Assembly: GCF_003334355.1 (NCBI RefSeq)
Contig: NZ_QOWP01000004.1
Strand: one strand, 5' to 3'
Origin: Escherichia coli
GTDB taxonomy: Bacteria > Pseudomonadota > Gammaproteobacteria > Enterobacterales > Enterobacteriaceae
Length of the DNA: 64,000 nucleotides
In this document: positions 2,238 through 26,157 of the stretch, in pieces
Layout: each line of letters starts with the position of its first letter
Numbering within the stretch: the stretch's first letter is position 1
Position numbers and translations under genes: made by a program
Notes under the pieces: generated by a model
What the model was told of the DNA's origin: nothing
Database searches by the model: none
Seen by the model: the letters and a program-made list of their open reading frames with translations, nothing else

Positions 2238-2993
2238 ATGACAAGTCTGGTTTCCCTGGAAAATGTCTCGGTTTCTTTTGGCCAACGCCGCGTCCTCTCT
2301 GATGTGTCGCTGGAACTTAAACCTGGAAAAATTTTGACTTTACTTGGGCCAAATGGCGCAGGTAAGTCGACACTGGTACGGGTAGTGCTCGGGCTGGTAA
2401 CACCCGATGAAGGGGTTATCAAGCGCAACGGAAAACTGCGCATCGGCTATGTACCGCAGAAGCTGTATCTCGACACCACGTTGCCACTGACCGTAAACCG
2501 TTTTTTACGCTTACGCCCTGGTACACATAAAGAAGATATTTTGCCTGCACTGAAACGTGTCCAGGCCGGGCACCTGATTAACGCACCGATGCAAAAGCTC
2601 TCTGGTGGCGAAACGCAGCGTGTACTATTAGCGCGAGCATTGTTAAATCGCCCGCAATTATTAGTGCTGGATGAACCCACTCAAGGCGTGGATGTAAATG
2701 GCCAGGTGGCGTTATATGACCTTATTGACCAACTGCGTCGTGAACTGGATTGTGGCGTTTTAATGGTTTCTCACGATCTGCATCTGGTGATGGCAAAAAC
2801 CGATGAAGTGCTGTGCCTGAATCACCACATTTGTTGTTCCGGCACACCGGAAGTTGTTTCCCTGCATCCGGAGTTTATTTCAATGTTTGGTCCTCGTGGC
2901 GCTGAACAACTGGGTATCTATCGCCATCATCATAACCATCGTCACGATTTACAGGGACGAATTGTTTTGCGTCGGGGAAATGATCGCTCATGA
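2238..2993 (+). CDS. znuC: Zinc ABC transporter ATPase ZnuC
   Basis: 251-aa ORF with Walker [13 protein letters not shown] signature LSGGE, Walker B LLVLDEP; conserved context. Confidence 0.95.
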
Positions 2994-3775
2994 TTGAATT
3001 ATTATTTCCCGGTTGGTTAGCCGGGATCATGCTCGCCTGTGCCGCGGGTCCGCTGGGTTCGTTTGTAGTCTGGCGTCGTATGTCTTATTTCGGTGATACG
3101 CTGGCTCATGCCTCATTACTTGGCGTCGCGTTTGGTTTGTTGCTGGACGTGAATCCATTCTATGCGGTGATTGCCGTTACGCTGCTGCTGGCGGGCGGTC
3201 TGGTATGGCTGGAGAAGCGTCCACAGCTGGCGATCGACACGTTATTAGGGATTATGGCGCACAGTGCCCTGTCGCTGGGCCTGGTGGTCGTGAGTCTGAT
3301 GTCTAATATTCGTGTTGATTTGATGGCTTACCTGTTCGGTGATTTGCTGGCAGTGACGCCAGAAGATCTCATCTCTATTGCGATTGGCGTGGTCATCGTG
3401 GTGGCTATTTTGTTCTGGCAATGGCGCAATTTGCTGTCAATGACGATAAGCCCGGATCTGGCGTTTGTTGATGGTGTGAAATTACAGCGAGTGAAATTGT
3501 TGTTGATGCTGGTGACGGCATTGACGATTGGTGTAGCGATGAAATTTGTCGGTGCGTTGATTATTACTTCGTTGCTGATTATTCCTGCTGCTACTGCGCG
3601 TCGCTTTGCCCGCACGCCGGAACAGATGGCTGGTGTCGCTGTTTTGGTGGGGATGGTGGCAGTGACTGGCGGTTTAACCTTTTCCGCGGTTTACGATACG
3701 CCGGCGGGTCCGTCGGTGGTGCTATGTGCGGCACTGTTATTTATTCTCAGTATGATGAAAAAGCAGGCCAGCTAA
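2990..3775 (+). CDS. znuB: Zinc ABC transporter permease ZnuB
   Basis: 261-aa hydrophobic multi-TM ORF; 4-bp overlap with znuC stop (translational coupling). Confidence 0.95.
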
Positions 3776-3792
3776 TCTATCGCTGAACACAT

Positions 3793-4112
3793 TTGTCGGA
3801 TGCGGCGCGAGCGCCTTATCCGACCTACGGTTCGCTATCTCTGGCTGGCCTGATAAGACGCGAACAGCGTCGCATCAGGCACACTGCCAATGTCGGATGC
3901 GGTGCGAGCGCCTTATCTGACCTACGGTTCGCTATCTCTCGTAGGCCGGATAAGACGCGAATAGCGTCGCATCAGGCACACTGCCAATGTCGGATGCGTC
4001 GCGAGCGCCTTATCCGAGCTACGGTTCGCTATCTCTGGTAGGCCGGATAAGACGCGAATAGCGTCGCATCAGGCACACTGCCAATTTCGGATGCGGTGCG
4101 AGCGACCAATCC
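3793..4112. repeat. BIME/REP cluster: about 3.3 tandem copies of a roughly 97-bp composite REP unit
   Basis: Unit tgtcggatgcggcgcgagcgccttatccgacctacggttcgctatctct..gccggataagacgcgaatagcgtcgcatcaggcacactgccaa repeats at about 3795, 3891, 3989, 4085 with point differences; contains inverted REP palindromes. Confidence 0.85.
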
Positions 4113-4115
4113 GAC

Positions 4116-5129
<1,014 letters not shown>

Positions 5130-14198: not shown

Positions 14199-14298
14199 GC
14201 CGGATGCGGCGTGAACGCCTTATCCGGCCTACAAAACCTTGCTAATTCAATATATTGCAGGGACTATGTAGGCCTGATAAGCATAGCGCATCAGGCAG
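14199..14298. repeat. Pair of inverted REP elements
   Basis: tgccggatgcggcgtgaacgccttatccggcctaca and inverted tgtaggcctgataagcatagcgcatcaggca between convergent cmoB and torZ. Confidence 0.8.
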
Positions 14299-26091: not shown

Positions 26092-26157
26092 TGTCGGATG
26101 CGGCGTCATCGCCTTATCAGACCGCCTGATATGACGTGGTCACGCCACATCAGGCAA
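26092..26157. repeat. REP element pair
   Basis: gtcggatgcggcgtcatcgccttatcagacc / gcctgatatgacgtggtcacgccacatcaggca between flhB start and cheZ end. Confidence 0.75.

What the first reader, a model, noticed from the sequence alone, without database searches (positions are those of the whole stretch)
3793..4112. Tandemly amplified BIME cluster between znuB and ruvB
About 3.3 near-identical copies of a roughly 97-bp composite REP unit are present here, with point differences between copies (e.g. gctggcctgataag vs gtaggccggataag). BIME copy number at a locus varies between strains, and such clusters bind IHF and gyrase and can act as transcript-stabilising or insulating elements between the convergent znuCB and ruvAB units.
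Basis: partly seen in the sequence, partly recalled or inferred. Interest (0 to 1): 0.25.

Follow-up and report, generated by a model that had tools for sequence, protein, structure and literature searches.

The report
Expanded BIME-2 REP cluster, znuB–ruvB
This is an ordinary, well-known type of E. coli intergenic repeat (a BIME-2 cluster of REP hairpins) that here has 7 palindromic units where most strains have 3; it is real and not an assembly error, but it is nothing new.

Summary
Window 3794-4121 holds 3.4 in-register copies of a 97-bp unit (91% match, no indels). They fill the 340-bp gap between convergent znuB (+) and ruvB (-). Each unit is a Y-type REP plus an inverted Z2-type REP, giving seven palindromic units (Y Z2 Y Z2 Y Z2 Y). 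That is the definition of a BIME-2.

All 5,426 complete E. coli genomes have a REP element at this junction. A systematic sample gives about 71% with 3 units (K-12 included), about 8% with 5, about 7% with 7 (this allele, also E. coli B), about 2% with 9, and about 10% interrupted by the REP-targeting IS1397. The alleles share recognisable units, so they form a stepwise gain and loss series. Independent assemblies agree on the 7-unit form, so an assembly artefact is excluded.

Published Topo-seq data list this very locus as a gyrase-cleaved BIME-2 in K-12. The IHF claim is wrong for this element: IHF sites belong to BIME-1 L linkers, and none is present here. Two true BIME-1 elements elsewhere in the window do carry an IHF-like site.

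The most likely roles are a gyrase site or topological barrier and a two-way 3'-UTR hairpin array. The extra units are probably near-neutral. This is already known, and interest is low.

The parts
3794..4121 (.). BIME-2 array: 3.4 copies of a 97-bp Y/Z2 unit, seven palindromic units in all
   Evidence: TRF period 97, 3.4 copies, 91% match, no indels. Alternating Y(+) and Z2(-) units.
3794..3830 (+). Y-type REP 1. Its GTAG box reads on the minus strand at 3822-3828.
   Evidence: 4 edits from the Y consensus. Hairpin -19.2 kcal/mol on the + RNA and -18.8 on the - RNA. The stem starts 19 nt after the znuB stop codon.
3843..3881 (-). Z2-type REP 1. Its GTAG box is mutated to GCTG.
   Evidence: 4 edits from Z2 against 8 from Z1. 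Hairpin about -21.5 kcal/mol on both strands. Carries TGCCTGAT, a TnpAREP type I motif.
3891..3927 (+). Y-type REP 2
   Evidence: Differs from Y1 at 3903 and 3918.
3940..3978 (-). Z2-type REP 2, with an intact GTAG box at 3941-3944
3988..4024 (+). Y-type REP 3
   Evidence: Unit-specific changes at 3999 and 4018.
4037..4075 (-). Z2-type REP 3, with an intact GTAG box at 4038-4041. Its sequence is identical to Z2 REP 2 from the GTAG box onward (the two differ only at the first base, 3940 C versus 4037 G).
4085..4121 (+). Terminal degenerate Y-type REP, present in all alleles. It overlaps the last codon and the stop codon of ruvB; the GTAG box has become GTAA, which contains the TAA stop.
   Evidence: 86% identical to the start of unit 1 over 35 nt. 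Hairpin about -10.8 kcal/mol, starting 1 nt after the ruvB stop on the minus-strand RNA. E. albertii has the intact form CCG-TAG-GTCGG.
3847..3922 (-). Match to Rfam RF02564 (naRNA4) above the gathering score. It spans Z2 REP 1 and Y REP 2.
   Evidence: 61.1 bits against a gathering score of 59.5. Further copies score 52, 40 and 37.5 bits on the same strand. This reflects homology of BIME-2 units to REP325, not a separate gene.
2990..3775 (+). znuB, the upstream convergent gene. The array lies in its 3' UTR.
   Evidence: NCBIfam NF007089 equivalog, 532.8 bits.
4116..5126 (-). ruvB, the convergent gene on the other side. The array lies in its 3' UTR.
   Evidence: NCBIfam NF000868 equivalog, 539.7 bits.

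Best explanation
The feature is the expanded (7-unit) allele of the BIME-2 REP cluster that sits between the convergent znuCB and ruvAB operons in all E. coli.

Anatomy (shown): Y and Z2 palindromic units alternate in inverted orientation. Their GTAG-box ends face each other across a 12-13-nt linker, and their other ends face each other across a 9-nt linker. Together these make a 97-bp unit repeated 3.4 times.

Origin (shown by comparing alleles): a 3-unit Y-Z2-Y element shared with E. albertii gained whole 97-bp units step by step, from 3 to 5 to 7 to 9. At least one lineage lost units by an in-register crossover between unit 1 and the last unit. Whether these events use RecA or replication slippage, or the REP-associated transposase TnpAREP, is not resolved.

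Function (inferred from the class, and partly from published data on this locus):
1. In the DNA, the Y units are preferred, transcription-independent gyrase binding and cleavage sites. This makes the cluster a sink or barrier for the positive supercoils that pile up between two convergent operons.
2. In the RNA, the hairpins form the 3' UTR of both transcripts. There they block 3'-to-5' exonucleases and attenuate read-through into the antisense strand of the facing gene.
3. The terminal hairpin starts 1 nt after the ruvB stop codon. That places ruvB in the class in which a REP can stall terminating ribosomes.

The four extra units relative to K-12 add more of the same hairpins and gyrase sites and are most likely near-neutral. 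It is not an IHF site.
For: Anatomy. The Y units are 4-6 edits from the Y consensus. The Z2 units are 4 edits from Z2 against 8 from Z1.

Family definition: BIME-2 is z2 + y in multiple tandem copies with short linkers, and its copy number at a locus varies between strains (PMC3333891).

Population: all 5,426 genomes match. In a 59-chromosome systematic sample, 4 have 7 units, 5 have 5 units, 42 have 3 units, 1 has 9 units, 1 has the 216-bp variant and 6 are IS-interrupted (alleles read).

Stepwise series: BHD6 is U1-U2-T. The window, E. coli B and SW071610 are U1-U2-U3-T. S171-1 is U1-U2-U2-U3'-T with a perfect U2 duplicate. AW1.7 has a U1/U3 chimera, with the crossover between 3846 and 3851.

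Age: the Y-Z2-Y element is also in E. albertii. Other genera have a single REP or an unrelated GC-rich hairpin in a 23-140-bp spacer.

Gyrase: Table DS3 of PMC6379681 lists this locus with 2 (Cfx), 2 (RifCfx), 0 (microcin) and 2 (Oxo) cleavage sites, while most BIME-2 rows are 0. Y units are cut more often than Z2 units, and the signal rises with rifampicin. BIME-2 elements have been proposed as topological barriers.

RNA: all seven units fold on both strands, at -7 to -22 kcal/mol. The whole spacer folds with z = -7.7 on the + strand and -6.7 on the - strand against shuffles. No intrinsic terminator or promoter is predicted in the spacer. REP325, which has the same architecture (period 100, 5.8 copies), acts as a partly Rho-dependent attenuator and an mRNA stabiliser, and convergent gene pairs with a REP between them show higher expression.

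[quoted passage not shown] The distance is 1 nt for ruvB and 19 nt for znuB.
Against: No experiment or transcript data exist for this 7-unit allele. The gyrase data are for the 3-unit K-12 allele only. The 2026 preprint finds REP effects to be strongly context-dependent and finds no general lengthening of mRNA half-life at REP-terminated transcripts, so a stabilising role here is not assured. I could not find this locus in the held part of that preprint's tables. I could not compare the linkers with the published S, s, l and r motif definitions, and they differ from the REP325 linkers (about 77% identity over the unit). Y2 and Y3 are weakened on the minus strand (-7.2 and -9.3 kcal/mol), and two of the seven GTAG boxes are mutated, so some units are decaying. 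That fits neutrality better than selection for a higher copy number.
Confidence: 0.85

Rival explanations
1. The extra units have no function of their own. The array is a passively expanding and contracting selfish or neutral repeat, and only the basal 3-unit element (or just some hairpin) matters to the cell.
For: About 71% of genomes manage with 3 units, and about 10% tolerate an IS1397 inside the element. Both gains and losses are seen. Some units carry stem-weakening and GTAG-destroying mutations. Other genera need only one GC-rich hairpin in the same spacer.
Against: This overlaps with the best explanation rather than excluding it. The 7-unit allele is stably inherited in several hundred genomes. 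More Y units should mean more gyrase sites, but this is untested.
Confidence: 0.5
2. It is an IHF-binding BIME (RIP/RIB, BIME-1 type) that bends DNA between the two operons, as the first reader partly suggested.
For: REPs as a class are often quoted as IHF sites (for example in the background of PMC1525189).
Against: IHF sites lie in the L linker of BIME-1, which is z1 + y in a single copy. Here the units are z2 + y in tandem with 9-13-nt linkers. No IHF consensus is present with 2 mismatches or fewer. The BIME-1 controls in the same window do have the site.
Confidence: 0.03
3. It is a cluster of naRNA4-like nucleoid-associated RNA genes whose transcripts, together with HU, bridge cruciforms and condense the chromosome.
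For: One copy exceeds the Rfam RF02564 gathering score (61.1 against 59.5 bits) and three more score 37-52 bits on the same strand. The Y/Z2 architecture is the same as REP325. Qian et al. 2015 proposed this role.
Against: The Rfam model is essentially one BIME-2 unit, so any BIME-2 will hit it. There is no promoter in the spacer. The 2026 preprint from a group that includes an author of the original work reports that REP325 deletion or overexpression does not change nucleoid volume and that REP-REP contacts are not seen.
Confidence: 0.05
4. The repeat count is an assembly artefact, either a collapse or an expansion.
For: Tandem repeats of about 100 bp can be mis-assembled from short reads.
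Against: 290-342 complete genomes from unrelated projects carry the identical 340-bp spacer at 99% identity or more. Three were read base by base. The units carry distinct diagnostic SNPs, which makes collapse or expansion detectable. The 5- and 9-unit alleles are separately documented.
Confidence: 0.02
5. The 82-codon ORF at 3793-4041 (+) encodes a protein.
For: It appears in the mechanical ORF list.
Against: It lies entirely within the repeat and starts with TTG. It exists only because the 97-bp period is not a multiple of 3 and the repeat happens to lack stop codons. It is absent or much shorter in the roughly 71% of genomes with 3 units.
Confidence: 0.01

Closest known systems
BIME-2 family of E. 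coli REP clusters (Gilson, Bachellier and Hofnung; as summarised in Ton-Hoang et al. 2012, PMC3333891)
   Same: Alternating inverted y and z2 REPs, multiple tandem copies, short linkers, a position at the 3' ends of genes, and strain-to-strain variation in copy number. The K-12 form of this very locus is already catalogued as a BIME-2 (Table DS3 of PMC6379681).
   Different: Nothing essential. This allele has 7 units where K-12 has 3. Two GTAG boxes are mutated, and the terminal unit overlaps the ruvB stop codon.
REP325 / naRNA4 (yjdM-yjdN BIME-2, Rfam RF02564)
   Same: Y/Z2 tandem array. REP325 has period 100 and 5.8 copies; this array has period 97 and 3.4 copies. The palindromic units are 86-91% identical, and one copy passes the Rfam gathering score. 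It is the best experimental model for the attenuator plus stabiliser role.
   Different: REP325 lies between tandem genes within one operon, whereas this array lies between convergent operons. The linkers differ, giving about 77% identity over the whole unit. It is a different locus.
BIME-1 / RIP / RIB elements (IHF-binding)
   Same: They contain a Y REP paired with an inverted partner and sit at 3' ends. Two examples lie in this window, at 14199-14296 and 60963-61061.
   Different: BIME-1 uses z1 rather than z2, is single-copy, and has a 35-36-nt L linker with an IHF site. None of this holds at 3794-4121.
Gyrase-cleaved BIME-2 sites such as sucB-sucC, tldD-yhdP and araD-araA (Espeli and Boccard 1997; Sutormin et al. 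2019)
   Same: Same family. The K-12 allele of this locus is in the same table with non-zero, rifampicin-resistant cleavage counts.
   Different: The counts are lower: 2 here, against 6 for sucB-sucC and 35 for tldD-yhdP under ciprofloxacin. The 7-unit allele itself has not been measured.

Membership tests
BIME-2 | Built from y-type and z2-type REPs in alternating inverted orientation | tested here: met
   Y(+) units are 4-6 edits from the Y consensus. Z2(-) units are 4 edits from Z2 against 8 from Z1. blastn-short agrees. The consensus sequences were recalled from the literature, not taken from a curated file.
BIME-2 | Multiple tandem copies at one locus | tested here: met
   3.4 copies of a 97-bp unit, seven palindromic units.
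BIME-2 | Short linkers, with no L motif or IHF site | tested here: met
   Linkers are 12-13 nt and 9 nt. The best IHF-consensus match has 3 mismatches.
BIME-2 | Linkers match the catalogued S, s, l or r motifs | not tested
   No reference sequences for these motifs were available. The linkers differ from those of REP325. Ton-Hoang et al. note that BIME-2 linkers vary in length and sequence.
BIME-2 | Copy number at a given locus varies between strains | tested here: met
   Alleles with 3, 5, 7 and 9 units.
BIME-2 | Bound and cleaved by DNA gyrase in vivo | not testable with these tools
   Published for the K-12 3-unit allele of this locus: 2 (Cfx), 2 (RifCfx), 0 (microcin) and 2 (Oxo) cleavage sites. 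Not measured for the 7-unit allele.
BIME-1 (RIP/RIB, IHF-binding) | z1 + y pair in a single copy | tested here: not met
   The units are z2, and the array is tandem.
BIME-1 (RIP/RIB, IHF-binding) | Long L linker carrying an IHF site | tested here: not met
   No site with 2 mismatches or fewer in 3776-4115. The positive controls at 14245-14257 and 61009-61021 have 1-mismatch sites in 35-36-nt linkers.
REP / palindromic unit | Imperfect palindrome of about 35-40 nt that folds as a hairpin on either strand | tested here: met
   All seven units fold at -7.2 to -21.8 kcal/mol on both strands.
REP / palindromic unit | Conserved GTAG tetranucleotide 5' of the stem | tested here: inconclusive
   Present in 5 of 7 units. 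Z2 REP 1 has GCTG and the terminal Y has GTAA.
naRNA4 (Rfam RF02564) | Covariance-model score at or above the gathering threshold | tested here: met
   61.1 against 59.5 bits for 3847-3922 (-). The other copies score 52, 40 and 37.5 bits, below the threshold.
naRNA4 (Rfam RF02564) | Discrete HU-bound RNA with a role in nucleoid condensation | not testable with these tools
   No expression data are available. The role itself is disputed by the 2026 preprint.
TnpAREP (RAYT) substrate | GTAG-boxed REP with a stem mismatch, plus CC^T cleavage motifs in the inverted partner | tested here: met
   5 GTAG-boxed REPs, 3 copies of TGCC^TGAT and 4 copies of [GT][GTA]CC^TAC, at an exact 97-bp spacing. Criteria are from PMC3333891. 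This tests the motifs only, not enzyme activity.
Translation-modulating REPs (Liang, Rudd and Deutscher 2015) | REP hairpin fewer than 16 nt downstream of the stop codon | tested here: met
   Met for ruvB, with a 1-nt gap. Not met for znuB, with a 19-nt gap. The rule is taken second-hand from PMC12306157 because the original paper is not held.

The most novel reading that the evidence does not exclude
Unit number at this BIME-2 acts as a heritable dial. Going from 3 to 9 palindromic units changes, in steps, the gyrase load or supercoil insulation between znuCB and ruvAB and the 3'-end stability of both mRNAs. Gains and losses are catalysed at the CC^T sites by the REP transposase TnpAREP rather than by general recombination. 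The single informative deletion junction (AW1.7) falls in a 4-nt interval right next to such a site.
Probability: 0.1. Interest if true: 0.4.

Novelty: already known. Interest (0 to 1): 0.1.

Why it matters
It matters little beyond annotation. The element should be labelled as a BIME-2 REP cluster with 7 units, not as an IHF site, an sRNA gene or an ORF. The znuB-ruvB spacer is a clean natural allelic series of 3, 5, 7 and 9 units, plus an IS1397-interrupted form, at a locus with published gyrase cleavage. It could therefore serve as a convenient test bed for whether REP copy number tunes supercoiling or 3'-UTR behaviour, and for how BIME units are gained and lost. It is also a handy strain-typing polymorphism.

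Tried and rejected
- IHF consensus scan at 0 and 1 mismatch: nothing in the array. The best match has 3 mismatches.
- Sigma-70 promoter and intrinsic terminator scan of 3400-4500: nothing in the spacer. The only terminator-like hit lies inside znuB and is at chance level.
- A fuzzy-regex census of REPs over 64 kb timed out. I replaced it with blastn-short.
- The Liang et al. 2015 paper (PMC4427526) is not held. I took the 16-nt rule second-hand and could not check whether ruvB is in their gene list.
- The held supplement text of the Harris 2026 preprint has no ruvB row, and its only znuB row is a differential-expression line. I therefore could not check whether this REP is among their 78 bidirectional-terminator REPs.
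- The K-12 RefSeq feature table returned no REP features for this region, so I did not obtain the K-12 REP number of the locus.
- Rfam search of the 66-71-nt insert in the 216-bp allele found no family other than naRNA4 hits on the neighbouring REPs.
- The assembly-artefact and coding-ORF readings were rejected (see the rival explanations).
- The cross-species scan returned a sparse sample (80 of more than 600 matches, with no Salmonella), so the age estimate rests on E. albertii and a few genera.

Full report
**Observation.** The sequence at 3794-4121 is a clean tandem array. Tandem Repeats Finder gives period 97, 3.4 copies, 91% matches, no indels and a score of 551. The repeat finder shows three in-register copies exactly 97 bp apart. 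blastn of unit 1 against the whole window finds units 2 and 3 at E = 3e-35 and 1e-37, and no other full copy. NCBIfam equivalog models identify znuA (-), znuC (+) and znuB (+, ending at 3775) on one side and ruvB (-, stop at 4116-4118) and ruvA (-) on the other. The array therefore fills the 340-bp gap between two convergent operons.

**Anatomy.** Each 97-bp unit has four parts. First comes a Y-type palindromic unit on the + strand (TGTCGGATGCGGCGCGAGCGCCTTATCCGACCTACGG). A 12-13-nt linker follows. Next is an inverted Z2-type unit (GTAGGCCGGATAAGACGCGAATAGCGTCGCATCAGGCA), and then a 9-nt linker. Approximate matching to the Y, Z1 and Z2 consensus sequences (recalled from the literature) places the + strand units 4-6 edits from Y. 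The inverted units are 4 edits from Z2 but 8 from Z1 (blastn-short agrees). The layout is Y Z2 Y Z2 Y Z2 Y, ending in a degenerate Y at 4085-4121. All seven units fold as hairpins on both strands, at -7 to -22 kcal/mol. The whole spacer folds far better than shuffled controls on both strands, with z = -7.7 and -6.7. Five of the seven units keep the conserved GTAG box. The array carries three TGCC^TGAT and four [GT][GTA]CC^TAC motifs, the consensus cleavage sites of the REP transposase, all at a 97-bp spacing (criteria from PMC3333891).

**Which family.** Ton-Hoang et al. (PMC3333891) summarise the definitions. BIME-1 is z1 + y in a single copy, with a long L linker that frequently carries an IHF site. 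BIME-2 is z2 + y in multiple tandem copies with short linkers, and its copy number at a locus varies between strains. The element here meets every BIME-2 criterion I could test and fails the BIME-1 criteria.

The IHF point has an internal control:
- The array has no match to WATCAANNNNTTR with fewer than 3 mismatches.
- The window contains two genuine Y/Z1 pairs, at 14199-14296 and 60963-61061. Their 35-36-nt linkers carry ATTCAATAWATTG, one mismatch from the consensus.

Only the gyrase half applies here.

**Population comparison.** All 5,426 complete E. coli genomes match the locus. In a systematic sample of 59 chromosomes taken down the ranking, the spans of the matches give the following.

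| Allele | Spacer | Rows of 59 | Approx. share |
|---|---|---|---|
| 7 units (this window) | 340 bp | 4 | 7% |
| 5 units | 243-245 bp | 5 | 8% |
| 3 units (K-12 type) | 146-151 bp | 42 | 71% |
| 9 units | 437 bp | 1 | 2% |
| 216-bp variant | 216 bp | 1 | 2% |
| Match breaks off at window position 3860 | - | 6 | 10% |

- In the genome I fetched from the last class, an IS3-family IS1397 sits in the loop of the Z2 unit, with ACA duplicated. IS1397 is known to insert specifically into REPs.
- Between 290 and 342 records carry the 7-unit allele at 99% identity or more.
- I read three of them base by base: the window, E. coli B ATCC 11303 and SW071610.

**History.** The alleles share recognisable units.
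- BHD6 is U1-U2-T.
- The window, E. coli B and SW071610 are U1-U2-U3-T.
- S171-1 is U1-U2-U2-U3'-T, with a perfect second copy of U2.
- AW1.7 has 3 units, but its Z2 is a chimera: the 5' end of the window's U1 (GGCTGGCC) joined to the remainder of U2/U3 (GGATAAGACGCGAATAGCG). It also carries the window's terminal Y. One in-register deletion, with a crossover between 3846 and 3851, explains it.
- E. albertii and a divergent E. coli lineage carry the 3-unit Y-Z2-Y form.
- Pseudocitrobacter and Citrobacter have a single REP-like unit. Enterobacter, Pluralibacter and other genera have 23-140-bp spacers with unrelated GC-rich hairpins.

The convergent gene arrangement is old. Some hairpin is always kept between the two stop codons. 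The Y/Z2 element dates to the genus Escherichia, and the expansions are events within E. coli.

**Mechanism.** Three roles are supported for the class.

1. *Gyrase.* Sutormin et al. (PMC6379681) find gyrase cleavage sites over-represented in a subset of BIME-2 elements. Y units are cut more than Z2 units, and the signal increases when transcription is blocked. Their Table DS3 lists this very locus in K-12 W3110 ('BIMEs2 1947056-1947182, znuB>-<ruvB'). It has 2 cleavage sites with ciprofloxacin, 2 with rifampicin plus ciprofloxacin, 0 with microcin B17 and 2 with oxolinic acid. Most BIME-2 rows are zero, and BIME-1 elements are depleted in cleavage sites. BIME-2 elements have also been proposed as topological barriers. 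A convergent junction is where positive supercoils accumulate, so a gyrase sink there is a sensible function. It is my inference, not a measurement, that the 7-unit allele offers more sites (four Y units against two in K-12).

2. *RNA.* No intrinsic terminator or promoter is predicted in the spacer, so the REP hairpins are the only structured 3' elements for both operons. REP325 has the same Y/Z2 tandem architecture (period 100, 5.8 copies, units about 77% identical). A 2026 preprint shows that it acts as a partly Rho-dependent attenuator and an mRNA stabiliser. The same preprint reports that convergent gene pairs with a REP between them have higher expression. It also stresses strong dependence on context.

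3. *Translation.* The terminal hairpin begins 1 nt after the ruvB stop codon, while the first hairpin is 19 nt after the znuB stop. [quoted passage not shown] 2015, as cited). This unit is common to all alleles, so it does not distinguish the expanded form.

**naRNA4 hit.** Rfam RF02564 matches 3847-3922 (-) at 61.1 bits, against a gathering score of 59.5. Further copies score 52, 40 and 37.5 bits. The model is in effect one BIME-2 unit, so the hit shows homology to REP325 units rather than a distinct gene. The proposed HU and nucleoid role is contradicted by the 2026 preprint.

**Verdict.** The feature is real and correctly recognised as an amplified BIME between znuB and ruvB. More precisely, it is the 7-unit allele of a catalogued BIME-2. 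The gyrase link is documented for this locus, the IHF link does not apply, and the extra copies are probably near-neutral. Both the kind of element and its copy-number polymorphism are already known, so interest is low. The only mildly open questions are whether unit number tunes anything and which enzyme changes it. For the second, the single informative junction lies next to a TnpAREP-type site. That is one observation and proves nothing.

Noticed in passing
window 14199-14296 and 60963-61061 (also 26092-26123): Two Y(+)/Z1(-) REP pairs with 35-36-nt linkers carrying ATTCAATAWATTG, one mismatch from the IHF consensus. These are BIME-1 (RIP-type) elements. There is also a lone Y-like REP at 26092-26123.
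   Followed up: partly
window 4085-4121; L006 (E. albertii) ruvB 3' end: The ruvB stop codon lies inside the terminal REP. E. albertii reads CCG-TAG-GTCGG, so the REP's conserved GTAG box supplies the stop. E. coli has GTAA, so the stop is TAA. The hairpin starts 1 nt after the stop.
   Followed up: partly
L005 (NZ_CP022730.1) 2870-4218; class H36-39 and H94-99: About 10-12% of complete E. coli genomes appear to have the REP-targeting IS1397 (IS3 family) inserted in the loop of the Z2 unit at this same locus, with a 3-bp ACA duplication. Only one genome was read directly. The class size is inferred from identical coverage break-points.
   Followed up: partly
L004 about 529-600 (NZ_CP070066.1) and L005: The 216-bp allele carries a 66-71-nt hairpin-containing insert directly after the first Y REP. 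The insert is itself a dispersed, unannotated repeat, present in 2,233 of 5,426 genomes with a median of 5 and up to 27 copies per genome. It has no Rfam family and is absent from this window. It looks like a small REP-associated mobile element.
   Followed up: partly
L091 (NZ_CP058725.1, strain S171-1) 701-1137: A 9-unit allele with a 437-bp spacer exists. It contains a perfect duplicate of unit 2, which suggests a very recent gain of one 97-bp unit.
   Followed up: yes
window 3793-4041 (+): A mechanical 82-codon ORF starting with TTG lies wholly inside the repeat. It is a by-product of the array and should not be annotated as a gene.
   Followed up: yes
L003 (NZ_CP073624.1, strain AW1.7) spacer: This 3-unit allele has a Z2 that is a chimera of the window's unit 1 and unit 3. 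The crossover lies in a 4-nt interval next to the GTAG box, which is the complement of a TnpAREP type II cleavage site. This is a single case, so it is only a lead.
   Followed up: partly
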